Source: Escherichia phage 1H12. From it: a stretch of DNA of 46,703 nt. The stretch lies in sequence record NC_049947.1. One strand, written 5' to 3'. This document shows positions 21,757 to 44,287 of this stretch, in pieces. The notes beneath the pieces were generated by a model, which saw only the letters and a list, made by a program, of their open reading frames with translations, was not told the DNA's origin and did not search any database. The translations under genes and the position numbers were made by a program. Each line of letters starts with the position of its first letter. Position 1 is the stretch's first letter.

Positions 21757-22614
21757 CTAATTGGGTGATAACAGATCCTGTGTATGGGAGTTTCCCTTTT
21801 TGCGTGCGTTGATGCTGGTAACGGCAAACGTCATGATGAACAAAACCGCGAATAAGACGACAATCGTCGGAGCTGGTGCGCTGTCGATAAAAAAGGACAA
21901 CCAGACACCAGTCATTGACACTATTACCGATATGCCAGTCGCCAGTAGGAGCGCAATATGAAAGCGTTGTGTCAGGAGTACCGCAATGGCGCCAGGCGCA
22001 ATGAGCAGAGAAATGGAGAGAATGATACCTACCGCTTTCAGCGTCGCCACAATGGTCAGAGAGACCATGCACAGCAGCCCATAATGCAGCCATCTCGTAT
22101 GCAAACCGCTTACCTGCGCCTGTTGATAATCAAAGCTGAACAGCAAAAAATCCCGCCATTTTACGCTAATAACAAGTGTAACCAGCCCGGCAATAATCAT
22201 CGTCTGGATTATATCGCCGATGGTTATCCCGAGCATGTCGCCGAAAAGAATATGGTCAAGATGTACGTCTGGTTTGACTGCAATATACAAGATCAGACCT
22301 GCGGCAAACATGCCAGAAAAAACAATCCCCATCACTGTATCTTGCTTGATTCGGCTGTTGTCTTTCAGGTATCCCGTCGCCACCGCGCAGAATACTCCGG
22401 CGACGAATGCCCCTGTAGCCAAAGGTAACCCCAGAATCCAGGCAAGCACGATGCCAGGAAAAACCGCATGACTCATCGCGTCACCCATCAGTGCCCAACC
22501 TTTCAGGACCAGAAAGACCGACAGCAGCGCACAGGGTATGGAAACTACCAGTGAAATCAGCAGTGCGTGACTCATAAAGGTGAACTGCAGTGGCTCCAGT
22601 AATAATGCCATCAT
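21757..22614 (-). CDS. sitD: manganese/iron ABC transporter permease SitD
   Basis: 285-aa polytopic membrane ORF; ABC-3 metal permease family; fourth gene of a sitABCD-like operon. Confidence 0.85.
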   Translation of the reverse strand: MMALLLEPLQFTFMSHALLISLVVSIPCALLSVFLVLKGWALMGDAMSHAVFPGIVLAWILGLPLATGAFVAGVFCAVATGYLKDNSRIKQDTVMGIVFSGMFAAGLILYIAVKPDVHLDHILFGDMLGITIGDIIQTMIIAGLVTLVISVKWRDFLLFSFDYQQAQVSGLHTRWLHYGLLCMVSLTIVATLKAVGIILSISLLIAPGAIAVLLTQRFHIALLLATGISVIVSMTGVWLSFFIDSAPAPTIVVLFAVLFIMTFAVTSINARKKGNSHTQDLLSPN

Positions 22615-23468
22615 GAGCGATCCTCCAGCGCCTTATGCGCACGCCGACGATTTGCCAAAAGCCCATGGGTGGGCGCAAAGACAAATGCTAAAAGAAACAG
22701 CAGTGTCTGCGCCACCACGATGATTCCACCTGTCGCGCCGTCCAGAAAGTAACTGACCCACGCGCCGAGGAAACTGGTTACACTGCCAATAGTTACAGCA
22801 ATCATGAGCAGGCGGGGAAAACGATCGGTTAACAACCATGCTGTTGCACCGGGAGTCACCACCAGACAGATCACCAGAAAGGCACCAACCGTTTGCAGCG
22901 CCGCAACGGTCGAAACCGACAGCAGGGTGAAGAAGAGGAGTTTTAATCTGCCCGGATGCAATCCAATAGCACGGGCGTGATTCTCGTCGAAAAAGGTCAC
23001 CATAAGATCTTTCCATTTGAAAAAAAGCACGATGATCGAGAGAATGCCAATGATAGTGAGTTGCAGGATATCCGCCGGATCGATTGCCAGAATATTGCCC
23101 AGGACGATGGTCTGAATGTTCACAGATGTCGGGTTCAATGACACCATAAACAGCCCCAGGCCAAAAAAGGACGAGAAGATCAGACCGATGATGGCATCTT
23201 CTTTTAAGCGGGTGCGTTGGTTAAGAAACAGCATGCTGCCCGCAGCCAGTCCGCCGGAAAAGAAGGCTCCCAGAGAAAACGGAAGCCCCAGCATATATGC
23301 CCCCGCAACACCCGGGACAATAGAGTGCGACAACGCATCGCCAATCAGCGACCAGCCTTTTAGCATCAGATAGCATGACAGGAAAGCGCAGAGACCGCCG
23401 ACCATCGCCGAGACCCACATCGCATTGAGCATATATTCATAGCTGAAGGGTTCCAGTAGCACGTTCAT
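22611..23468 (-). CDS. sitC: manganese/iron ABC transporter permease SitC
   Basis: 285-aa polytopic membrane ORF, stop/start overlap with neighbours. Confidence 0.85.
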
Positions 23469-24292
23469 CTTTCTTCCCTCTGCACCGCTGACGGTCGATG
23501 AGCCACAAAAGGGCGTTCATCGTCAGTAATAATGCTTTCTTCCGAGCCGTTAAGTGTGACATGGCGCAGTACGCCGCTAAAAGCCAGCTCTAGGTTCTCG
23601 GCTGTAAAAGTGGTGTCTGTCGGCCCGCTTGCCAGGACGGTGCCTTTGACCATGACCGTATAATCGCAAAATGTCGTGACGGATCCGAGATTGTGTGTTG
23701 AGACAAGCATCGTTTTGCCTTCCGCGCGTAACTCCCTCAACAGGCTGATGATTTTGGCTTCGGTTTTCACATCAACGCCAGTAAAAGGTTCATCCAGCAG
23801 GATCACATCACCCTGCTGTGCAATCGCTCTCGCCAGAAAGACGCGTTTCTTTTGTCCACCGGAAAGCTCGCCGATTTGTCGATGGCGAAAATTCACCATA
23901 TCGACACGTTCCAGCGCATCGGTGACAATTTGACGATCCCTCTTTTTGGCGATACGCAACATACCCATATGCCCATAGCGGCCCATCATCACCACATCTT
24001 CCACCAGTACAGGAAATGACCAGTCAACATCTTCTGACTGAGGGACGTAGGCAACCAGGTTTTTCTGTAACGCCTGTCGCGTGGGAATACCCAGAACAGA
24101 TATCTTTCCGCTGGTCAGACGCACAAATCCCATAATCGCTTTAAACAACGTCGATTTTCCGGAACCGTTTACCCCAACCAGAGCGGCAATAGATCCACTT
24201 GGTACTGTGAAGGATGCATCGCGCAGTGCTGTGTGCCCGTTACGCCAGGTGACAGTAACATCATTAACGACAATGCCTGCAGATTGCATCAT
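23465..24292 (-). CDS. sitB: manganese/iron ABC transporter ATP-binding protein SitB
   Basis: 275-aa ORF with Walker [10 protein letters not shown] and an ABC signature motif. Confidence 0.9.
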
Positions 24293-25206
24293 TATTTCTC
24301 CCTTTTCCCAGCTTTAATTCCCTGTACCAGCGTACTGGTAGTAACCTTAAGAAGGTCGATATACGTCGGTACCGGGCCGTTTTCTGTGCTCAGGGAATCG
24401 ACATAGAGCACACCGCCGTAGTGTGCGCCGGTTTCACGCGCAACCTGACGCGCTGGTTTATCGGAAATCGTACTCTCGCTAAAGACTGCCGGGATATGAT
24501 TTTTCTTAACTATATCAACAACCTTACGTACCTGCTGCGGTGTTCCTTGTTGATCGGCATTAATCGGCCACAGATAAAGCTCTTTTAGCCCCAAATCGCG
24601 TGCGAGATAAGAAAAAGCCCCTTCACTGGTGACCATCCATCGCTGATTCTCAGGGAGTTCCGTAATCTGCTTACGCAGGGGGGCAAGGGTTTGGGTAATC
24701 TTGGCTTTATAAGTATCGGCATTGCGTTGGTAGGTTTGTGCATTTGCCGGATCGTATTTTATCAACGCATCACGAATATTATCGACGTAAATCAGAGCAT
24801 TATCTGGCGACATCCATGCATGGGGGTTAGGTTTGCCCTCATAGGGTCCTTCGGTGATCCCTACAGGCGTCACACCCGAAGAGACAATTACTTCTGGAAC
24901 CCCATTGAGATGCTGGTAAAAGCGTTGGAACCACAATTCCAGATTCATACCATTGGCGAGAATCAGTTGTGCCCCCTGCGCACGTTTAATATCGCCAGGG
25001 GTAGGCTGATACTCATGAATTTCTGCACCAGGCTTGGTTATGGATGAGACTTCTGCAGCATCTCCCGCCACGTTTTTGGCCATATCCGCGATGATGGTAA
25101 ATGTTGTAATGACCTTGAATTTTTCAGTTGCACTTGCCTGAAATGCGATCGAGCAGGTGAGTGCGAGCCCCCCCAAGAGCATGGTTACTTTTTTTATCGA
25201 GTGCAT
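24292..25206 (-). CDS. sitA: manganese/iron ABC transporter periplasmic substrate-binding protein SitA
   Basis: 304-aa ORF with an N-terminal signal peptide; TroA/PsaA-like metal-binding protein. Confidence 0.85.
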
Positions 25207-32965: not shown

Positions 32966-33547
32966 ATGAACAACTCATGGTGGCAGGAACTAATGCATTT
33001 TTTCCTGCAAGGAATGACACTTAAACAGTTGATTCATATGCTAATCATCCTGATCATATTGATTATTGTTATGCCTGTAAGCGTAAAAGAATGGATAAAC
33101 CTGCATAATCCAGAAATCCTTCCTCATTACTGGATGTATTACATCCTGTTGTTTTGCGTTAGCTATGTGCTTAACGGCGTTGTTAATTCCGCTTATCACG
33201 CTGTGACTGTAAGAATTGAGATATTCGCTGCTCAGAAGCGCAAATCTAAAGAAGAGAAATACGTGCAAGATTTGTTTGATTCGTTAACTCTTGGAGAAAG
33301 AGCGTATTTGGCATTCGCTGTAGCCGCTAATAACCAGCTAAAGACAGAAAAGGGAAGCCCTGAAGCAATCTCATTGCTCGAAAAAGGGCTTCTTATTCGG
33401 GTACCTTCTGCTACTGGATATCCTGAAATCGACCGTTTTGTTATCCCGGAACGCTATAGAAATGAGTGCTACATTAGGTTTGCTGGGAAGAAAGACAGTC
33501 TTATGGATGAACTTATCGCTCAGGATAAGCATGGCAAAAACAAGTAA
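32966..33547 (+). CDS. sieB: superinfection exclusion protein B
   Basis: 193-aa ORF with an N-terminal membrane segment (MNNSWWQELMHFFLQGMTLKQLIHMLIILIILIIV), matching lambda/Rac SieB; transcribed opposite to the early-left operon. Confidence 0.85.
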   Translation: MNNSWWQELMHFFLQGMTLKQLIHMLIILIILIIVMPVSVKEWINLHNPEILPHYWMYYILLFCVSYVLNGVVNSAYHAVTVRIEIFAAQKRKSKEEKYVQDLFDSLTLGERAYLAFAVAANNQLKTEKGSPEAISLLEKGLLIRVPSATGYPEIDRFVIPERYRNECYIRFAGKKDSLMDELIAQDKHGKNK

Positions 33548-33563
33548 TTAGCAAATGAATTTA

Positions 33564-33872
33564 TCATCTCGCCGTCAGTTGTTTTGATTTCCGGTAGCCT
33601 GCCGCGTAAATAGCTACGTTTGGCAGGCAAACACTTCCACTGCATTCATCTACTTTCTTGCAGCGAAGGCTTCCGAGTGATATTGCTTTTTCAGAAAGGC
33701 TTAACCGCTTTCTCGGGTCTTCCTGAACAGGTTCCTCACTGTCTGTGCCGAAGATCGAATCGATGATGTTGCAGATGGAATCACGCTCGATGGCCAGCTT
33801 TCTGCGCCGCTCATGACGGCGAGTTTTGGCATTTCCTGCAAATGTTGATTTTCCGTACACGATTACCGTCAT
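33564..33872 (-). CDS. N: antitermination protein N (P22 gene 24 type)
   Basis: Internal ATG gives MTVIVYGKSTFAGNAKTRRHERRRKLAIERD..., an arginine-rich motif closely resembling P22 gp24. Confidence 0.8.
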   Translation of the reverse strand: MTVIVYGKSTFAGNAKTRRHERRRKLAIERDSICNIIDSIFGTDSEEPVQEDPRKRLSLSEKAISLGSLRCKKVDECSGSVCLPNVAIYAAGYRKSKQLTAR

Positions 33873-34314: not shown

Positions 34315-35214
34315 TTATTTGATTATTTCTTTTATAAAGACTTCTTTCGGTTGGTATTTTTTATCTGATGATTTGAGCTGGTACGTTATTGTTATATCAG
34401 CACGTACAGAAAATTTACCTGCAAAATCTGATGGGTTTACGTTGGGGCCAAGAACCATATTTACTCTTCGATCTATTAATCCAGGGATAACAGCAGCCCA
34501 ACCTTTCTCTGGATTGTCGAGGTCTAATGCACGGATTTCAACATCAACATCAAAATGATCCTGAGTATATGACTCTGGTGTGAAGACAACTTCAGTTGGG
34601 GCTTTTTTAATGGTTTCAGCGGGAATGGTCACTGTACCACCCCCTGTACCTATGACCATCGTAGATCCTTCGTCTGCCCTAGCTGGGGCAAGCGTCTTAA
34701 TGGAACTTTTGGCAAGAGTCTTCTTATTGGTTACCGTGCTTTCTATGATTGCTTGAAGACGGTCAGGTGAAATATTAGCCTCACCGGCACCAATATTGAT
34801 GATTGTATTGTTATTTGCTTCAAAGTGGGAGGTGTTGCTTGGAGCCATAGCCTTAGTTGCTAGAACTAAGCCATATCCAACCAGACCAATAACAACAGCA
34901 CCAACGAGAGCGTTTCTCATTTTCCCATTTCCGATCTTTGCATGAGCGCCAGCAAGAAACTTGTCCATTTCTTCTTGGCTACCAAAGAGGAGTTTAATAA
35001 CAATATCTTCATAAAGGCTTCCTGCTTCTAATCGCGCAACATGCACCGATATATCAAGGATATTAGCCCCTGTCAGTTCCTGCAAAACACCTTCTGATTG
35101 TTTTGCGATGGCCTCCCACCCTTGAAGGGAGGTAATCACATCTTTGATGCTTACAGGTTCTTTAGTTGAATAATATATGTTTTCGGTAAAGGTTAAAGAT
35201 AATTCTTGGGACAT
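34315..35214 (-). CDS. hypothetical single-pass membrane protein at the rexAB-equivalent position (candidate phage exclusion / abortive-infection protein)
   Basis: 299-aa ORF with RBS gaggg 5 nt upstream; one hydrophobic segment (~residues 100-122, NALVGAVVIGLVGYGLVLATKAM); AT-rich; lies between cI and the pL/nutL/N region. Confidence 0.65.
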   Translation of the reverse strand: MSQELSLTFTENIYYSTKEPVSIKDVITSLQGWEAIAKQSEGVLQELTGANILDISVHVARLEAGSLYEDIVIKLLFGSQEEMDKFLAGAHAKIGNGKMRNALVGAVVIGLVGYGLVLATKAMAPSNTSHFEANNNTIINIGAGEANISPDRLQAIIESTVTNKKTLAKSSIKTLAPARADEGSTMVIGTGGGTVTIPAETIKKAPTEVVFTPESYTQDHFDVDVEIRALDLDNPEKGWAAVIPGLIDRRVNMVLGPNVNPSDFAGKFSVRADITITYQLKSSDKKYQPKEVFIKEIIK

Positions 35215-36051: not shown

Positions 36052-36129
36052 GAGTACGATACTAAAGCACTTGCAAAAACTTTCAGTTCAACCATAATGC
36101 GTACTGAAAGTACGAAAAAGGACATTCCT
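36052..36129. promoter_or_regulatory. OR: OR operator / pRM-pR divergent promoter region
   Basis: Intergenic between divergent cI and cro; perfect palindrome cgtactgaaagtacg (36100..36114) and related half-site actttcagt (36079..36087). Confidence 0.6.
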
Positions 36130-36463: not shown

Positions 36464-36763
36464 ATGGAACAAACAAATTACAGCAAACTATCACAGCGCG
36501 ACGTTGATCGCGCAGAAACAGATTTACTTATCAACCTGTCAACGCTTACTCAGCGCGGTCTGGCAAAGATGATTGGCTGTCATGAATCGAAGATAAGCAG
36601 AACAGACTGGAGGTTTATAGCTTCGGTCTTGTGTGCTTTTGGCATGGCATCAGACATCAGTCCGATTAGCAGAGCTTTTAAGTATGCGCTTGATGAAATC
36701 ACCAATAAAAAACGCCCGGTGTGCAAGACCGAGCGTTCTGAACAAATCCAGATGGAGTTCTGA
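36464..36763 (+). CDS. cII: transcriptional activator CII
   Basis: 99-aa ORF; C-terminus TNKKRPVCKTERSEQIQMEF matches lambda CII. Confidence 0.85.
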   Translation: MEQTNYSKLSQRDVDRAETDLLINLSTLTQRGLAKMIGCHESKISRTDWRFIASVLCAFGMASDISPISRAFKYALDEITNKKRPVCKTERSEQIQMEF

Positions 36764-36785
36764 GGTCATTACTGGATCTATCAAC
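36707..36785 (-). ncRNA. oop: OOP antisense RNA (antisense to the 3' end of cII)
   Basis: Reverse strand reads gttgatagatccagtaatgacctcagaactccatctggatttgttcagaacgctcgg...caccgggcgttttttatt, matching lambda OOP including its terminator. Confidence 0.6.
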
Positions 36786-36795
36786 AGGAGTCATT

Positions 36796-37695
36796 ATGAC
36801 AAATACAGCAAAAATACTCAACTTCGGCAGAGGTAACTTTGCCGGACAGGAGCGTAATGTGGCAGATCTCGATGATGGTTACGCCAGACTATCAAATATG
36901 CTGCTTGAGGCTTATTCGGGCGCAGATCTGACCAAGCGACAGTTTAAAGTGCTGCTTGCCATTCTGCGTAAAACCTATGGGTGGAATAAACCAATGGACA
37001 GAATCACCGATTCTCAACTTAGCGAGATTACAAAGTTACCTGTCAAACGGTGCAATGAAGCCAAGTTAGAACTCGTCAGAATGAATATTATCAAGCAGCA
37101 AGGCGGCATGTTTGGACCAAACAAAAACATCTCAGAATGGTGCATCCCTCAAAACGAGGGAAAATCCCCTAAAACGAGGGATAAAACATCCCTCAAATTG
37201 GGGGATTGCTATCCCTCAAAACAGGGGGACACAAAAGACACTATTACAAAAGAAAAAAGAAAAGATTATTCGTCCGAGAATTCTGGCGAATCCTCTGACC
37301 AGCCAGAAAACGATCTTTCTGTGGTTAAACCGGATGCTGCAATTCAGAGCGGCAGTAAGTGGGGAACAGCAGAAGACCTGACCGCCGCAGAGTGGATGTT
37401 TGACATGGTGAAGACCATCGCGCCATCAGCCAGAAAACCGAATTTTGCTGGGTGGGCTAACGATATCCGCCTGATGCGTGAACGTGACGGACGTAACCAC
37501 CGCGATATGTGTGTGCTTTTCCGCTGGGCCTGCCAGGACAACTTCTGGTCCGGTAACGTGCTGAGTCCGGCCAAACTCCGCGACAAGTGGACCCAGCTCG
37601 AAATCAACCGTAACAAGCAACAGGCTGGCGTGACAGCCGGAAAACCAAAACTCGACCTGACAAACACTGACTGGATTTACGGGGTGGATCTATGA
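36796..37695 (+). CDS. O: replication initiator O
   Basis: 299-aa ORF MTNTAKILNFGRGNFAGQERNVADLDDGYARLSNMLLEAY matching lambda gpO. Confidence 0.95.
   Translation: MTNTAKILNFGRGNFAGQERNVADLDDGYARLSNMLLEAYSGADLTKRQFKVLLAILRKTYGWNKPMDRITDSQLSEITKLPVKRCNEAKLELVRMNIIKQQGGMFGPNKNISEWCIPQNEGKSPKTRDKTSLKLGDCYPSKQGDTKDTITKEKRKDYSSENSGESSDQPENDLSVVKPDAAIQSGSKWGTAEDLTAAEWMFDMVKTIAPSARKPNFAGWANDIRLMRERDGRNHRDMCVLFRWACQDNFWSGNVLSPAKLRDKWTQLEINRNKQQAGVTAGKPKLDLTNTDWIYGVDL
37144..37275 (+). repeat. ori: replication origin inside O: four iterons plus adjacent A/T-rich segment
   Basis: Four ~18-bp repeats of the type atccctcaaaacgaggga followed by A-rich sequence. Confidence 0.8.
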
Positions 37696-38393
37696 AAAAC
37701 ATCGCCGCACAGATGGTTAACTTTGACCGTGAGCAGATGCGTCGGATCGCCAACAACATGCCGGAACAGTACGACGAAAAGCCACAGGTACAGCAGGTAG
37801 CGCAGATCATCAACGGTGTGTTCAGCCAGTTACTGGCAACTTTCCCGGCGAGCCTGGCTAACCGTGACCAGAACGAACTGAACGAAATCCGCCGCCAGTG
37901 GGTTCTGGCTTTCCGGGAAAACGGGATCACCACAATGGAACAGGTTAACGCAGGAATGCGCGTAGCCCGTCGGCAGAATCGACCATTTCTGCCATCACCC
38001 GGGCAGTTTGTTGCATGGTGCCGGGAAGAAGCATCCGTTATCGCCGGACTGCCAAACGTCAGCGAGCTGGTTGATATGGTTTACGAGTATTGCCGGAAGC
38101 GAGGCCTGTATCCGGATGCGGAGTCTTATCCGTGGAAATCAAATGCGCACTACTGGCTGGTTACCAACCTGTATCAGAACATGCGGGCCAATGCGCTTAC
38201 TGATGCGGAATTACGCCGTAAGGCCGCAGATGAGCTTGTCCATATGACTGCGAGAATTAACCGTGGTGAGGCGATCCCTGAACCAGTAAAACAACTTCCT
38301 GTCATGGGCGGTAGACCTCTAAATCGTGCACAGGCTCTGGCGAAGATCGCAGAAATCAAAGCTAAGTTCGGACTGAAAGGAGCAAGTGTATGA
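37692..38393 (+). CDS. P: replication protein P (DnaB helicase loader)
   Basis: 233-aa ORF matching lambda gpP. Confidence 0.95.
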   Translation: MKNIAAQMVNFDREQMRRIANNMPEQYDEKPQVQQVAQIINGVFSQLLATFPASLANRDQNELNEIRRQWVLAFRENGITTMEQVNAGMRVARRQNRPFLPSPGQFVAWCREEASVIAGLPNVSELVDMVYEYCRKRGLYPDAESYPWKSNAHYWLVTNLYQNMRANALTDAELRRKAADELVHMTARINRGEAIPEPVKQLPVMGGRPLNRAQALAKIAEIKAKFGLKGASV

Positions 38394-38680
38394 CGGGCAA
38401 AGAGGCAATTATTCATTACCTGGGGACGCATAATAGCTTCTGTGCGCCGGACGTTGCCGCGCTAACAGGCGCAACAGTAACCAGCATAAATCAGGCCGCG
38501 GCTAAAATGGCACGGGCAGGTCTTCTGGTTATCGAAGGTAAGGTCTGGCGAACGGTGTATTACCGGTTTGCTACCAGGGAAGAACGGGAAGGAAAGATGA
38601 GCACGAACCTGATTTTTAAGGAGTGTCGCCAGAGTGCCGCGATGAAACGGGTATTGGCGGTATATGGAGTTAAAAGATGA
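38390..38680 (+). CDS. ren: Ren protein
   Basis: 96-aa ORF matching lambda Ren. Confidence 0.85.
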   Translation: MTGKEAIIHYLGTHNSFCAPDVAALTGATVTSINQAAAKMARAGLLVIEGKVWRTVYYRFATREEREGKMSTNLIFKECRQSAAMKRVLAVYGVKR

Positions 38681-38753
38681 CCATCTACATTACTGAGCTA
38701 ATAACAGGCCTGCTGGTAATCGCAGGCCTTTTTATTTGGGGGAGAGGGAAGTC

Positions 38754-39194
38754 ATGAAAAAACTAACCTTTGAAATTCGATCTCCAGCACATCAGCAAAA
38801 CGCTATTCACGCAGTACAGCAAATCCTTCCAGACCCAACCAAACCAATCGTAGTAACCATTCAGGAACGCAACCGCAGCTTAGACCAAAACAGGAAGCTA
38901 TGGGCCTGCTTAGGTGACGTCTCTCGTCAGGTTGAATGGCATGGTCGCTGGCTGGATGCAGAAAGCTGGAAGTGTGTGTTTACCGCAGCATTAAAGCAGC
39001 AGGATGTTGTTCCTAACCTTGCCGGGAATGGCTTTGTGGTAATAGGCCAGTCAACCAGCAGGATGCGTGTAGGCGAATTTGCGGAGCTATTAGAGCTTAT
39101 ACAGGCATTCGGTACAGAGCGTGGCGTTAAGTGGTCAGACGAAGCGAGACTGGCTCTGGAGTGGAAAGCGAGATGGGGAGATCGGGCTGCATGA
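38754..39194 (+). CDS. ninB: recombination protein NinB
   Basis: ATG at 38754 after RBS gagggaag; MKKLTFEIRSPAHQQNAIHAVQQILPDP matches lambda NinB. Confidence 0.85.
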   Translation: MKKLTFEIRSPAHQQNAIHAVQQILPDPTKPIVVTIQERNRSLDQNRKLWACLGDVSRQVEWHGRWLDAESWKCVFTAALKQQDVVPNLAGNGFVVIGQSTSRMRVGEFAELLELIQAFGTERGVKWSDEARLALEWKARWGDRAA

Positions 39195-39718
39195 CTATCA
39201 AATCAAATACGCCAGCACACGACAAGGACTGCTGGCAAACGCCGCTTTGGCTTTTTGATGCACTGGATATTGAGTTTGGATTCTGGCTGGATTCGGCAGC
39301 GAGCGACAAAAATGCTCTGTGTGCTCACTGGCTAACTGAGGCCGACGACGCGCTCAATTCTGAGTGGGTAAGCCACGGTGCAATCTGGAATAACCCACCG
39401 TACAGCAATATCAGGCCGTGGGTGGAAAAAGCCGCTGAGCAGTGCATACAACAGCGACAGACGGTAGTTATGCTTGTGCCAGAGGATATGTCAGTCGGAT
39501 GGTTCAGCAAGGCTCTGGAGAGTGTCGACGAAGTTCGCATTATCACTGATGGACGGATTAATTTTATCGAACCATCGACAGGGCTGGAGAAGAAGGGAAA
39601 CAGCAAAGGCTCCATGCTGCTGATTTGGCGACCGTTCATCAGTCCTCGACGGATGTTTACTACCGTATCCAAAGCGGCATTGATGGCGATCGGGCAGGGC
39701 GTCAGGAGGGCGGCATGA
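39191..39718 (+). CDS. phage Dam-like DNA N6-adenine methyltransferase
   Basis: 175-aa ORF with the NPPY catalytic motif; start overlaps the ninB stop. Confidence 0.7.
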
Positions 39719-39891
39719 GGCGACAGCGACGAAGTTTCACCGACATCATCTGCGAAAACTGCAAATACCTTCCAACGAAACGCTCCAGAAATAAACGCAA
39801 GCCAATCCCAAAAGAATCTGACGTAAAAACCTTCAATTACACAGCTCACCTGTGGGATATCCGGTGGCTAAGATATCGTGCGAGGAAATGA
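39715..39891 (+). CDS. ninE: NinE protein
   Basis: 58-aa product [30 protein letters not shown]; lambda NinE-like. Confidence 0.7.
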
Positions 39892-40235
39892 CAATGGATT
39901 ATTCACAGTTAAGTGATTTTGAAATTAACAGAATGGTAGGAGACATAATTTTTAAAGGCCTTTGGGCAAGTAAACCGGAAACATCAGGGAATAACACCAA
40001 CAAATGGTATTACGGAAATGCTGATACAACTTTTGAGCCATTAAATCATTTGCCTGACTACTGCAATGATCCGAGCGCTTCATGGCCGATTATTGAGAAA
40101 TACAGGATTTCTATCTTAGACCAGTTAACTGAATGGTGTGTGGATGCAAAAGGCGTAAGCCCAATATTTGATACCAGACCTCTCCGCGCCGCCATTATTG
40201 TCTTTCTCCTGATGCAGGAGGCCAATAATGCTTAG
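39888..40235 (+). CDS. hypothetical nin-region protein
   Basis: ATG at 39888 after RBS gaggaa, overlapping the ninE stop. Confidence 0.55.
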
Positions 40236-40422
40236 CCCATCTCAATCCCTTCAATACCTGAAAGGAAGCATAGAGCGGGCTTCAATGTGCACAGAGTGGA
40301 TTCTATCTAGGTTTAGCGCATACAGAAGATTGCCGGTAAAGGGCATGCCAAGCAAGTCGATGCTGCATATGCAAAAGAATGCGCGCGGGAAGGTATGGCG
40401 AGAACGCAGGTTATCTGGCTGA
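40228..40422 (+). CDS. ninF: NinF-like protein (diverged C-terminus)
   Basis: 64-aa ORF starting [10 protein letters not shown] like lambda NinF. Confidence 0.5.
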
Positions 40423-40441
40423 AAGAGGGGGTAATTAAGGC

Positions 40442-40804
40442 GTGAATACTTACCACATCACACTACCCTGGCCTCCGAGCAATAATCGCTATTATCGCCA
40501 TAATCGCGGGCGCACGCACGTCAGCGCAGAGGGGCAGGCATACCGCGATAACGTCGCCCGAATCATTAAAAACGCAATGCTGGATATCGGCCTGGCGATG
40601 CCTGTGAAAATCCGCATTGAGTGCCACATGCCGGATCGCCGTCGCCGTGACCTGGATAATCTGCAAAAAGCCGCTTTTGACGCACTCACCAAAGCAGGTT
40701 TCTGGCTGGATGATGCTCAGGTCGTTGATTACCGCGTTGTGAAGATGCCTGTTACCAAAGGTGGGAGGCTGGAATTGACCATCACCGAAATGGGGAATGA
40801 ATGA
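40442..40804 (+). CDS. rusA: Holliday junction resolvase RusA
   Basis: 120-aa [31 protein letters not shown] matching DLP12 RusA. Confidence 0.9.
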
Positions 40805-40941
40805 TGTTTGAGTTTTATATGGCAGAACGTCTTCGCCACCGCTGGGTGCGTCTGCGCTTATATCGTTTCCCCGGTTCTGTTTTGACCGATTACCGAATAC
40901 TGAAGAATTACGCCAAAACACTGACAGGAGCAGGAGTATGA
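40801..40941 (+). CDS. ylcG: small protein YlcG-like
   Basis: 46-aa [28 protein letters not shown] directly after rusA, as in DLP12; below the ORF-track size cutoff. Confidence 0.55.
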
Positions 40942-41026
40942 AGTCAGAGATAACAATCAACTAATACTGTTTTGCTGATTTTTGCTTGTAATTGGCGTTC
41001 TGGTCTGATTTTTGTGGAGTAAGTTG

Positions 41027-41404
41027 ATGCGTGATATTCAGATGGTTCTTGAGCGTTGGGGAGCGTGGGCGGCTAATAATCATGAAGATGTGACCTGGTC
41101 GTCCATTGCCGCCGGTTTTAAGGGATTAATTCCTTCAAAAGTAAAATCTCGCCCGCAATGTTGTGACGATGACGCGATGATCATTTGCGGGTGCATGGCC
41201 CGTCTGAAAAATAACAACAGCGATTTGCATGATTTGTTAGTGGACTATTATGTCGGCGGCATGACTTTTATGGCGCTTGCGCGTAAGCATGGTAGATCTG
41301 ATTGTTGGATTGGCAGGATGCTCCAAAAAGCTGAGGGCGTAGTGGAGGGCATGCTGATGGTGTTGGATCTCAGATTGGAGATGGATGCTGATTGTTTGAG
41401 ATAA
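41027..41404 (+). CDS. Q: late-gene antiterminator Q (DLP12 QuuD / phage 82 type)
   Basis: ATG at 41027 after RBS ggagtaag; [33 protein letters not shown]. Confidence 0.8.
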
Positions 41405-41560: not shown

Positions 41561-42085
41561 TTATTGTTTGACCCATAATAGTTCATTGACATTGAATCCC
41601 AATTTTTGAGCAGTACGCACATAGTCTGCTTTTACATTATCTGGAATAGTTGGAGTCCGTGCCAGAATCCATAGGTATTCTCTGTTCGGACCACTGACAA
41701 GAGCATATTTATACTCATCATCCAGTTTGATTACATTATAGCCACCATAGAAGGGGCCAAAAAACGAAACCTTCAACGCTGCAGTTGTATTATCTCCTGT
41801 AAAGTATGCTTTACCTTCGCTCTCGCTCCATTTGTTTTTCGTTGGGTCATATCCACGATTAAGTACACTAATCCCTCCGTCGTTCCGTTTCCCATAAGTG
41901 GCGCTGACCTGTTCCAGACCACGTTCAAATCGGTTCTCAAGCCGAGCTATTTCATACCATTTTCCGAGGTAGCGGTTGGTGTCAAAATTTGTAATCGGCT
42001 GCACACCTTTAGGTGGTGTCGGGGCCTTACATGCTATCAGAGTGAAAGAGAGTGCAATGCCAGTCAACACAGGCCATAACTTCAT
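41561..42085 (-). CDS. blc: outer-membrane lipoprotein, bacterial lipocalin Blc family
   Basis: 174-aa ORF with lipoprotein signal and lipobox LIAC; YLGKWYEIARLENRFERG and SFFGPFYGGYNVI match lipocalin motifs. Confidence 0.75.
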   Translation of the reverse strand: MKLWPVLTGIALSFTLIACKAPTPPKGVQPITNFDTNRYLGKWYEIARLENRFERGLEQVSATYGKRNDGGISVLNRGYDPTKNKWSESEGKAYFTGDNTTAALKVSFFGPFYGGYNVIKLDDEYKYALVSGPNREYLWILARTPTIPDNVKADYVRTAQKLGFNVNELLWVKQ

Positions 42086-42277: not shown

Positions 42278-43237
42278 ATGATAAAAAAACCTGTCGTTGG
42301 GATCAGTGGTTGTTTGGCCGGTTCTTCTGTCCGTTTTGATGGTGGTCACAAAAGAGCTAGCTTTTTAATGGACAAATTACTGGAATGGGTAACATTCAAA
42401 CCAGTATGTCCGGAAATGGCTATAGGGCTTCCAGTTCCGCGTCCTGCTCTACGTCTTGTTCGCTCGGCGCAAGGAAATATACGGATGTGTTTCAGCCACG
42501 ACCAGAATGAGGATGTTACAGAGAAAATGACAGAGTTTAGTCGTTCTTATCTTGACAAATTAAAGGATGTATCGGGATTTGTGGTTTGTGCAAAATCTCC
42601 TAGCTGTGGTATGGAACGCGTGCGTGTATATGATGAAAATGGTAATCGTGGTCGTAAAGATGGAGTGGGACTATTTACGAGCACGTTGATGGAAAGGTTT
42701 TCCTGGCTACCGGTTGAAGAGGATGGGCGACTACATGATCCAGTGCTTCGTGAAAACTTTGTTGAAAGAGTATTTGCTTTACATGAGCTCAATCATCTTT
42801 ATAAAGCGAAATTATCAAGAAGGGAATTATTAGCTTTTCATAGCCGTTATAAGCTTCAGTTGTTGGCGCATAGCCAGGCCGGTTATAAAGAGATGGGGCC
42901 ATTTGTGGCTGCAATACATGAGTGGGCAGACCTTGAATCATACTTTGAGGTGTATCGTGAGAAGCTGATGGCGATTCTCAGAAAACCTGCATCACGTAAA
43001 AATCACACGAATGTGCTGATGCATATACAGGGATATTTTAGTAACTGCTTAAATACACGTCAGCGTAAAGAGTTGAGCGATGTTATACTTAACTATCGAG
43101 CTGGCACGCTACCTCTTCTTGCGCCATTAACTTTGCTGAAGCATTACTTGGCAGAGTATCCTGATGATTATTTGCTTATACAGAATTACTTCCACCCCTA
43201 TCCTGATGAACTGGCTCTAAGACTCTTGGTGAACTAG
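42278..43237 (+). CDS. DUF523 (TudS-like) / DUF1722 (YbgA-like) two-domain protein
   Basis: 319-aa ORF; N-terminal GISGCLAG...VCPE Cys pattern typical of DUF523, C-terminal half YbgA-like. Confidence 0.6.
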   Translation: MIKKPVVGISGCLAGSSVRFDGGHKRASFLMDKLLEWVTFKPVCPEMAIGLPVPRPALRLVRSAQGNIRMCFSHDQNEDVTEKMTEFSRSYLDKLKDVSGFVVCAKSPSCGMERVRVYDENGNRGRKDGVGLFTSTLMERFSWLPVEEDGRLHDPVLRENFVERVFALHELNHLYKAKLSRRELLAFHSRYKLQLLAHSQAGYKEMGPFVAAIHEWADLESYFEVYREKLMAILRKPASRKNHTNVLMHIQGYFSNCLNTRQRKELSDVILNYRAGTLPLLAPLTLLKHYLAEYPDDYLLIQNYFHPYPDELALRLLVN

Positions 43238-43546: not shown

Positions 43547-44287
43547 GTGGATGGTATGCCATGCATATGTTCTATCATTTTGGTTTTGAACTCGTTTGAT
43601 ATCCGGCTTGGTAAAGAAAAAATCTCTCTAAAAAAAGGAAGTGTTGTTGCTATAGAATACAATTTAAAAGTTTTCTTTTCTTCAAATAAAGATAATATAA
43701 TGATCGTGGATATTGAAGAGAAAACAGTTAATGACTTCTTTAAAAACAATACACTCTCACCTTTTTCTGTAAGAAGATTTTATTCAGCATACTTGATAGT
43801 AAACTGTACAGACTATTCATTGTTAAAGAACTTGATAGGTTGCTTGAATTGTGATGGTGAAACTACGGCTGTAGTTAAAAATTCAATATTATTTGCATGT
43901 CTTGCTATTTTATCCTCGGAAAAAATGTTTCAGAGTTTTTTGTTTGGGTGTCTTAATAGTTTAGGAAGCAAAGTTAAGGCTATTATTCACTCGGACATAT
44001 CTGCAGCATGGAGACTTTGTGATATTTCTTCAAGACTATGTCTGAGTGAAAGTTTGTTAAAAAGAAAACTAAAACACGAAGGCTTATCATTTAGCAAATT
44101 AATTCTTGAAGAACGAATGGTGATGGCTGAAAGGTTATTAAGCTACAATTTCTATCCTGTTGGGAAAGTTGCTAAAATATGTGGTTATGAAAGCGCGTCA
44201 TATTTTATAAGTGTTTTCAGAAGATATTTTGGTGTTCCCCCCCATGAATATTCATCAAGATTTTTTTTAGAAAAAGGCAAGATGTAA
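43547..44287 (+). CDS. AraC-family transcriptional regulator (AppY-like)
   Basis: 246-aa ORF in a very AT-rich island with a C-terminal AraC-type HTH (KVAKICGYESASYFISVFRRYFGVPPHEY). Confidence 0.75.
   Translation: MDGMPCICSIILVLNSFDIRLGKEKISLKKGSVVAIEYNLKVFFSSNKDNIMIVDIEEKTVNDFFKNNTLSPFSVRRFYSAYLIVNCTDYSLLKNLIGCLNCDGETTAVVKNSILFACLAILSSEKMFQSFLFGCLNSLGSKVKAIIHSDISAAWRLCDISSRLCLSESLLKRKLKHEGLSFSKLILEERMVMAERLLSYNFYPVGKVAKICGYESASYFISVFRRYFGVPPHEYSSRFFLEKGKM

What the first reader, a model, noticed from the sequence alone, without database searches (positions are those of the whole stretch)
39191..39718. Dam-like N6-adenine methyltransferase inserted in the nin region
A 175-aa ORF with the NPPY motif overlaps the ninB stop in the position where lambda carries ninC/ninD. 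A phage-borne orphan adenine methyltransferase could protect phage DNA from restriction or alter host methylation-dependent regulation.
Basis: partly seen in the sequence, partly recalled or inferred. Interest (0 to 1): 0.45.

Follow-up and report, generated by a model that had tools for sequence, protein, structure and literature searches.

The report
Known phage GATC adenine methyltransferase gene
This is an intact copy of a small, already characterised phage DNA adenine methyltransferase (identical to the Shiga-toxin phage VT2-Sakai protein that is almost certainly M.EcoVT2Dam, reported to methylate GATC); it sits where phage lambda carries ninC and ninD, and it is common and ordinary.

Summary
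A 175-aa ORF (39191-39718, +) has NPPY at residues 68-71. Its ATG overlaps the ninB stop (ATGA) and its stop overlaps the ninE start.

- It scores far above the curated cut-offs of Pfam PF05869 "Dam" (218 bits against 28) and NCBIfam TIGR01712 phage N-6-adenine-methyltransferase (266 bits against 97).
- Homology to lambda stops exactly at the ninB stop and resumes 7 nt into ninE. The gene therefore substitutes for ninC+ninD as a mosaic module; it is not an insertion.
- No nuclease gene is adjacent, so it is an orphan.

It is not new:
- The protein is 175/175 identical to VT2-Sakai orf32, the only annotated methyltransferase of that phage, so almost certainly M.EcoVT2Dam (GATC; Radlinska & Bujnicki 2001).
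- It also matches the phi24B "dam", whose expression follows prophage induction.
- Copies at 95% or more nucleotide identity occur in 242 phage records and in 1566 of 5426 complete E. coli genomes.

"Dam-like" holds by reported specificity only. There is no PF02086 match. The predicted fold is a bare catalytic core closest to PCIF1, M.TaqI and HsdM-type enzymes.

Likely role (inferred): N-dependent, lytic-phase methylation of replicating phage DNA that host Dam cannot keep up with, as shown for its relative T1 Dam.

Verdict: already known, low interest.

The parts
39191..39718 (+). dam: phage orphan N6-adenine DNA methyltransferase, 175 aa (M.EcoVT2Dam type)
   Evidence: ORF. PF05869 at 218.4 bits against a cut-off of 28.1. 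TIGR01712 equivalog at 265.9 bits against 97.05. 175/175 identical to VT2-Sakai NP_050531.1. 100% nucleotide identity to the annotated methyltransferase CDS in LR595860.1 and other records.
39392..39403 (+). Codons for N68-P69-P70-Y71, the catalytic motif IV (NPPY) of amino-methyltransferases
   Evidence: All four residues are invariant in 44 homologues of 59-86% identity. In the model they lie at the end of strand 64-68.
39233..39304 (+). Codons for residues 15-38 ([24 protein letters not shown]): N-terminal 'TP' helix plus first strand with LDxAAS. Read here as motif X plus a degenerate AdoMet-binding motif I (inference).
39551..39613 (+). Codons for residues 121-141 ([21 protein letters not shown]): conserved excursion between the last core strands, a candidate DNA-contact element in a protein with no separate target-recognition domain (inference)
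   Evidence: G121, R122, F125, K139 and G140 are invariant; N137 and S141 are at least 90% conserved. In the model this stretch lies between strands 114-119 and 141-146. The role is inferred only.
38754..39194 (+). ninB (Orf recombination mediator), upstream gene; its stop overlaps the dam start
   Evidence: PF05772 E=2e-54. 98.7% identical to lambda up to its stop codon. Annotated.
39715..39891 (+). ninE, downstream gene; its start overlaps the dam stop
   Evidence: PF05322 E=3.4e-42. 95% identical to lambda ninE from window 39722.
38706..38737 (+). tR2-like intrinsic terminator between ren and ninB, upstream of dam
   Evidence: Terminator scan: 8-bp stem with 6 GC pairs, followed by TTTTTATTT. 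It lies in the stretch that is 98.7% identical to lambda. Its equivalence to lambda tR2 rests on established lambda knowledge.
33564..33872 (-). N antiterminator gene, needed (by lambda precedent) for transcripts from PR to read through tR2 into ninB-dam-ninE
   Evidence: PF25694 N_peptide E=4.9e-41, full length.
36071..36098 (+). Promoter-like site between the repressor gene and cro (candidate PR), the presumed source of the dam transcript
   Evidence: TTGCAA-16-CATAAT, 9 of 12 matches. This is a consensus match only; the number of such sites in the region is no higher than in shuffled sequence.

Best explanation
The gene encodes an intact, minimal (175 aa) S-adenosylmethionine-dependent DNA N6-adenine methyltransferase of the phage 'Dam' family (PF05869/TIGR01712). 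Its protein is identical to the methyltransferase of Shiga-toxin phage VT2-Sakai, which is almost certainly the enzyme reported as M.EcoVT2Dam to make G(m6A)TC.

Shown here: family membership; an intact NPPY catalytic motif; a class-I methyltransferase core fold with no separate recognition domain; orphan status; an exact module swap for lambda ninC+ninD; and translational coupling (ATGA overlaps) within the ninB-dam-ninE run downstream of a tR2-like terminator.

Taken from the literature: GATC specificity for M.EcoVT2Dam and for the 33%-identical T1 Dam, and induction-linked expression of the identical phi24B gene.

Inferred: the gene is silent in the lysogen and is transcribed from PR once N lets RNA polymerase read through tR2. 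During lytic replication the enzyme flips the adenine of GATC into the NPPY pocket and methylates it. This completes methylation of phage DNA that is replicating faster than the scarce host Dam can follow. Packaged genomes are then fully GATC-methylated. That would protect them from restriction enzymes blocked by m6A at GATC (MboI/DpnII type) and from MutH nicking, make the phage independent of the host's Dam status, and modestly raise progeny yield.
For: - Family: PF05869 at 218.4 bits, TIGR01712 equivalog at 265.9 bits with full model coverage, phrog_111 'DNA methyltransferase'.
- Catalytic motif: NPPY is invariant, along with 38 other invariant columns, in 44 homologues.
- Identity: 175/175 identical to VT2-Sakai NP_050531.1, the only annotated methyltransferase in that phage.
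- Specificity: M.EcoVT2Dam is 'known to target 5'-GATC-3'' (PMC6602927; also listed among phage Dam-like enzymes in PMC7556043). T1 Dam YP_003925.1 belongs to the same Pfam family and is 33% identical, E=2e-26. It methylates GATC in a dam- host.
- Biological effect in T1: deleting T1 dam cut burst size from about 52 to about 32 even in a Dam+ host, and progeny DNA was then only partly methylated (PMC10470545).
- Expression: the identical phi24B gene (CM2 'dam', 100% to NP_050531.1) changed expression significantly on induction and was grouped with lytic-cycle genes (PMC3342100).
- Regulation context: tR2-like terminator upstream, N gene present, lambda-identical O-P-ren-ninB upstream.
- Substrate: the genome carries 132 GATC sites.
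Against: - No methylation data exist for this particular phage.
- I could not read the 2001 cloning paper. The equation of M.EcoVT2Dam with VT2-Sakai orf32 rests on orf32 being the only annotated methyltransferase there, and on later papers quoting 99-100% identity to 'M.EcoVT2'.
- The 2001 assay was, to my knowledge, a restriction-protection assay, which would not reveal additional off-GATC activity.
- The benefit to a phage whose host already has Dam is shown only for T1, a virulent and distantly related phage. No phenotype of a dam deletion in a lambdoid phage was found in the searchable literature.
- The authors of the phi24B study raised a possible role in lysogens instead.
- GATC is mildly under-represented in the genome (observed/expected 0.61). 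This neither supports nor contradicts the model.
Confidence: 0.85

Rival explanations
1. The enzyme has relaxed or additional specificity, methylating adenines well beyond GATC. It would then act as a broad anti-restriction device, like the non-specific prophage methyltransferases Hia5 and M.EcoGII. The reported GATC activity would be only what a DpnI/MboI assay can see.
For: - The protein has no separate target-recognition domain: it is 175 aa, and 132-144 residues align to catalytic cores alone.
- No solved structure exists for the family to show how four bases could be read.
- Relaxed-specificity adenine methyltransferases are known from prophages (PMC3299994; Serratia prophage OS31 in PMC7556043).
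Against: - The identical protein is reported as GATC-specific.
- T1 Dam of the same family gives the DpnI/MboI pattern of GATC methylation.
- The paper on the Hia5-type non-specific enzymes makes no mention of VT2, HP1 or T1 Dam.
- This protein has no match to any Pfam family other than PF05869 at E<=0.01, so it is not of the Hia5/M.EcoGII type as far as that shows.
- SMRT methylomes of STEC strains carrying two copies show no extra m6A motif, although the gene is probably silent in lysogens.
Confidence: 0.06
2. Its main role is regulatory in the lysogen or at the lysis-lysogeny decision. It would supplement host Dam to stabilise lysogeny, or alter host GATC-dependent processes (SeqA binding, mismatch repair, phase-variable promoters), rather than protect phage DNA.
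For: - Host Dam is reported to be required for stable 933W lysogeny (Murphy et al. 2008, as cited in PMC3342100).
- The phi24B Dam protein was detected with antisera raised against lysogen cultures, and the authors suggested it may supplement host Dam.
Against: - The same study grouped CM2 with genes whose expression follows the lytic cycle. It attributed the signal in lysogen cultures to the spontaneously induced subpopulation.
- The gene lies in the PR operon behind a tR2-like terminator, with no promoter-like site directly upstream of it in the scan.
- In Dam+ lysogens GATC sites are already 99.9% methylated, so little is left to add.
Confidence: 0.08
3. The ORF is a decaying remnant with no activity, carried along by the nin mosaic.
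For: Disrupted copies exist elsewhere, for example a pseudogene in Stx2a_F349 (H31) and many truncated or fused database entries.
Against: - Full-length match to both curated models.
- All invariant residues are present.
- Identical to the cloned, active enzyme.
- Conserved at 59-86% identity across many enterobacterial genera with the motifs intact.
Confidence: 0.01

Closest known systems
M.EcoVT2Dam (VT2-Sakai orf32, NP_050531.1); the same protein in phi24B, Stx2 phage II and Min27, and near-identical in HK97, HK544, Sf6 and Sf101
   Same: Identical amino-acid sequence, 175/175. Same ninB-dam-ninE context. Reported GATC specificity. Induction-linked expression in phi24B.
   Different: Nothing in the protein. 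Only the phage backbone differs: here it is a lambda-like siphovirus genome with lambda O, P, ren and ninB, not a short-tailed Stx phage.
Phage T1 Dam (YP_003925.1), and by its annotation the HP1/HP2 Dam
   Same: Same Pfam family PF05869. 33% identity over 158 residues, including NPPY and the TP helix. Orphan. GATC methylation was shown in a dam- host, with a burst-size defect when deleted.
   Different: T1 Dam is 237 aa, with about 45 extra N-terminal residues and a 14-residue insertion before the GR element. It belongs to a virulent phage with different regulation.
E. coli Dam / T4 Dam / DpnM (alpha-class, PF02086)
   Same: Same reported product, G(m6A)TC. Same chemistry: AdoMet and a (D/N)PPY pocket.
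Lambda ninC + ninD (the alternative occupants of this slot)
   Same: Same position, between the ninB stop and the ninE start, with the same ATGA coupling to ninB.
   Different: Unrelated sequence and function. Lambda NinC is annotated as a PAPS-reductase-like protein. There is no homology to the dam segment.

Membership tests
Phage N-6-adenine-methyltransferase (Pfam PF05869 'Dam' / NCBIfam TIGR01712; M.EcoVT2Dam, T1 Dam type) | Score above the curated family cut-offs over the full model length | tested here: met
   PF05869 at 218.4 bits against 28.1, model positions 1-167 of 169. TIGR01712 at 265.9 bits against 97.05, positions 1-165 of 165.
Phage N-6-adenine-methyltransferase (Pfam PF05869 'Dam' / NCBIfam TIGR01712; M.EcoVT2Dam, T1 Dam type) | Catalytic (D/N)PP(Y/F) motif IV present and conserved | tested here: met
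   NPPY at residues 68-71. Invariant in 44 homologues and conserved in T1 Dam.
Phage N-6-adenine-methyltransferase (Pfam PF05869 'Dam' / NCBIfam TIGR01712; M.EcoVT2Dam, T1 Dam type) | Class-I AdoMet-dependent methyltransferase fold | tested here: met
Phage N-6-adenine-methyltransferase (Pfam PF05869 'Dam' / NCBIfam TIGR01712; M.EcoVT2Dam, T1 Dam type) | Produces N6-methyladenine in GATC | not testable with these tools
   Reported for M.EcoVT2Dam, whose presumed source protein (VT2-Sakai orf32) is identical to this one, and for T1 Dam. No methylation data exist for this phage.
Phage N-6-adenine-methyltransferase (Pfam PF05869 'Dam' / NCBIfam TIGR01712; M.EcoVT2Dam, T1 Dam type) | Orphan: no cognate restriction endonuclease gene next to it | tested here: met
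   The neighbours are NinB (PF05772) and NinE (PF05322), followed by NinX and RusA. Annotation of the whole genome lists no endonuclease partner. dam is the only real gene in the window with a (D/N/S)PP(Y/F/W/H) motif.
Canonical Dam family (E. coli Dam, T4 Dam, DpnM; Pfam PF02086, alpha class) | Sequence match to the family model | tested here: not met
   Only PF05869 was reported at E<=0.01. PDB sequence and profile searches did not retrieve E. coli, T4 or DpnM Dam chains.
Canonical Dam family (E. coli Dam, T4 Dam, DpnM; Pfam PF02086, alpha class) | Alpha-class architecture: AdoMet motif, then an inserted target-recognition domain, then DPPY in the C-terminal half | tested here: not met
Type II restriction-modification methyltransferase | Paired with a restriction endonuclease of the same specificity | tested here: not met
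   Gene neighbourhood.
Non-specific prophage adenine methyltransferases (Hia5 / M.EcoGII type) | Sequence relationship to those enzymes, and methylation of adenine in nearly any context | tested here: inconclusive
   No sequences of those enzymes were compared directly. The defining paper does not mention the VT2, HP1 or T1 Dam group. This protein matches no Pfam family other than PF05869. Specificity was not testable here.

The most novel reading that the evidence does not exclude
This 175-aa enzyme has no target-recognition domain, and no member of PF05869 has a solved structure. It may therefore read GATC in a new way, for example through the conserved residue 121-141 excursion and the N-terminal residues, possibly as a dimer. 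Alternatively its true specificity in vivo may be broader than the GATC inferred from restriction-protection assays. Either would make it a minimal model for sequence recognition by a DNA methyltransferase.
Probability: 0.1. Interest if true: 0.4.

Novelty: already known. Interest (0 to 1): 0.08.

Why it matters
It matters little as a discovery. The gene is correctly annotated in the deposited near-identical genomes. Its protein is identical to VT2-Sakai orf32, almost certainly the enzyme cloned and assayed in 2001 as M.EcoVT2Dam, and it is present in about 29% of complete E. coli genomes.

Two open points remain. First, the biological benefit of a second GATC methylase to a lambdoid phage in a Dam+ host has not been measured directly. 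It has been measured only for T1, where loss of the phage Dam cut the burst to about 60%. Second, there is no structural explanation of how so small a protein recognises its site. Both are incremental questions.

Tried and rejected
- Single-sequence AF2 model: pLDDT 43, unusable. It was replaced by a model built with an alignment.
- PDB sequence search and profile search: only chance hits, so no solved relative was found by sequence.
- Link to M.EcoGIX ('SAY' specificity, which would include GAT): rejected. M.EcoGIX is a plasmid-borne single-strand-specific enzyme of pESBL, not this family.
- Link to Hia5-type non-specific methyltransferases: the defining paper has no mention of VT2, HP1 or T1 Dam.
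- Papers not held in the library and therefore not read: Murphy et al. 2008 (PMC2223730), Murphy et al. 2013 review (PMC3837797), Fang et al. 2012 (PMC3879109). The Radlinska & Bujnicki 2001 paper is not in the library, so its content is taken from citing papers.
- Literature searches for a lambdoid dam-deletion phenotype found none.
- GATC counting (132 sites, observed/expected 0.61) is not informative about function.
- A comparison of the whole window with LR595860.1 failed because the locus file was not yet available to the script. It was not repeated, because the 528-bp gene is 100% identical and the record coordinates differ from the window by one base.

Full report
**1. Observation**

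- It runs from ATG 39191 to TGA 39716-39718 on the + strand and encodes 175 aa. NPPY lies at residues 68-71.
- The start codon overlaps the ninB stop (…GCATGACT…). The stop overlaps the ninE start (…GGCATGAGG…). The three genes are therefore translationally coupled.
- An upstream GTG (39131) would give 195 aa. However, the family models start at residues 2-4 of the ATG form, and the large sequence clusters are 175 aa.

**2. What it is**

- The protein matches Pfam PF05869 "DNA N-6-adenine-methyltransferase (Dam)" at 218 bits (cut-off 28). It matches the NCBIfam equivalog TIGR01712 "phage N-6-adenine-methyltransferase" at 266 bits (cut-off 97). Both matches are end to end. The PHROGs hit is phrog_111, "DNA methyltransferase".
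- In an alignment of 44 homologues (59-86% identity; Escherichia, Pectobacterium, Serratia, Yersinia, Providencia, Photorhabdus and others), N68-P69-P70-Y71 is invariant. So are T17, P18, D34, G121, R122, K139, G140 and the W146-R147-P148 run, among others.
- These neighbours are two to four times larger. They align 132-144 of the 175 residues, so the protein is essentially a bare catalytic core without a separate target-recognition domain.
- No PDB entry is related by sequence, or by a profile of the family.

**3. Context**

- The window is a complete lambda-like phage genome, practically identical to deposited records such as Escherichia virus Lambda_2E9, LR595860.1.
- Window 36707-39194 is 98.7% identical to lambda 38600-41084 (O, P, ren, ninB), ending exactly at the ninB stop. 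Identity resumes at 39722 = lambda 42097, seven bases into ninE. The dam segment therefore replaces lambda ninC+ninD precisely. This is a mosaic module exchange at gene boundaries, not an insertion.
- A tR2-like terminator lies between ren and ninB (38706-38737). The phage has an N antiterminator gene (PF25694, E=4.9e-41). By lambda precedent, the nin genes are then expressed from PR only after N-mediated antitermination, that is, in lytic development.
- The neighbours are NinB, NinE, NinX and RusA. No nuclease partner is present.
- dam is the only real gene in the window with a (D/N/S)PP(Y/F/W/H) motif. It is an orphan methyltransferase.

**4. Already known**

- The protein is 175/175 identical to VT2-Sakai orf32, NP_050531.1. 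That is the only annotated DNA methyltransferase of that phage.
- The VT-2 dam methyltransferase was cloned by Radlinska & Bujnicki (2001). Later papers cite it as M.EcoVT2Dam, "known to target 5'-GATC-3'" (PMC6602927; PMC7556043). I could not read the original paper.
- The same protein is the "dam" (CM2) of phage phi24B, 100% identical to NP_050531.1. Its product was detected in lysogen cultures, and its transcript changed significantly on norfloxacin induction. The authors grouped it with lytic-cycle genes (PMC3342100).
- Copies with at least 95% nucleotide identity occur in 242 phage records, mostly Stx-converting and other lambdoid phages. They also occur in 1566 of 5426 complete E. coli genomes, with up to five copies per genome, nearly always between ninB and ninE.
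- By tblastn the family is found in 1906 phage records, from Escherichia, Klebsiella and Vibrio to Lactococcus and Gordonia phages.

**5. How it most likely works**

- Chemistry (established for this enzyme class): AdoMet-dependent transfer to N6 of an adenine flipped into the NPPY pocket.
- Specificity: GATC. This is reported for M.EcoVT2Dam and for T1 Dam. T1 Dam belongs to the same Pfam family and is 33% identical.
- Role (inferred): in T1, the phage enzyme methylates GATC in a dam- host. Deleting it lowers the burst from about 52 to about 32 even in a Dam+ host. The progeny DNA is then only partly methylated by host Dam (PMC10470545).
- By analogy, and given the position of the gene in the N-dependent PR operon, the lambdoid enzyme probably tops up GATC methylation on rapidly replicating phage DNA. 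Packaged genomes would then be fully methylated.
- That state would resist MboI/DpnII-type restriction and MutH nicking, and would free the phage from dependence on host Dam. This last step has not been shown for any lambdoid phage, as far as I could find.
- The genome offers 132 GATC sites.

**6. Is it "Dam-like"?**

Only in the reported product.
- There is no PF02086 match.
- The linear order is an N-terminal TP helix, a first strand with LDxAAS, NPPY about 30 residues later, and then the remaining core. This resembles the M.TaqI/HsdM arrangement rather than the alpha-class Dam arrangement. That reading is my inference from the model.
- The T1 study likewise found no significant sequence similarity between host Dam and T1 Dam.

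**7. Rivals**

- Broader specificity is not excluded by restriction-based assays, and it is made thinkable by the missing recognition domain. Nothing positive supports it. SMRT methylomes of strains with two copies show no extra motif, though the gene is probably silent there.
- A regulatory role in lysogens was suggested by the phi24B authors. It fits poorly with the lytic expression pattern and with the 99.9% GATC methylation already present in lysogens.
- A dead remnant is excluded by full-length conservation and by identity to the active enzyme.

**8. Verdict**

The feature is already known and very common. Interest is low.

Noticed in passing
window ~21757-25206 (-): A complete sitABCD manganese/iron ABC transporter operon lies on the opposite strand, in the b-region between the tail-fibre genes and int. 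This reading comes from the annotation of the near-identical record LR595860.1. It is a host-fitness cargo in a lambda-like phage.
   Followed up: no
window 41561-42085 (-): A bacterial lipocalin (Blc) gene (PF08212, E=2.2e-43) sits immediately downstream of the Q antiterminator gene and is convergent with it. This is the region where Stx phages carry stx.
   Followed up: partly
window 42278-43237 (+) and 43556-44287 (+): Two further cargo genes lie between Q and the holin. One is YbgA-like, with 2-thiouracil desulfurase (PF04463) and DUF1722 domains. The other is an AraC-family HTH regulator. Both would fall under Q-dependent late transcription.
   Followed up: partly
window 34315-35214 (-): A 299-aa ORF lies between N and the repressor gene, the slot that holds rexAB in lambda. 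It has no significant Pfam match. It is a candidate exclusion or defence gene expressed from the prophage.
   Followed up: partly
window 40442-40804 (+), 39852-40235 (+): The rest of the nin region is also mosaic relative to lambda. RusA (PF05866) and NinX (PF10765) take the place of lambda ninF, ninG, ninH and ninI. Q is of the PF06530 type.
   Followed up: partly
window 32966-33547 (+): A SieB superinfection-exclusion gene (PF14163, E=3.2e-25) lies next to N.
   Followed up: no
whole window: Most 4-bp palindromes are under-represented against a Markov expectation, including CTAG (0.54), GATC (0.61) and GGCC (0.66). CCGG is over-represented at 1.21.
   Followed up: no
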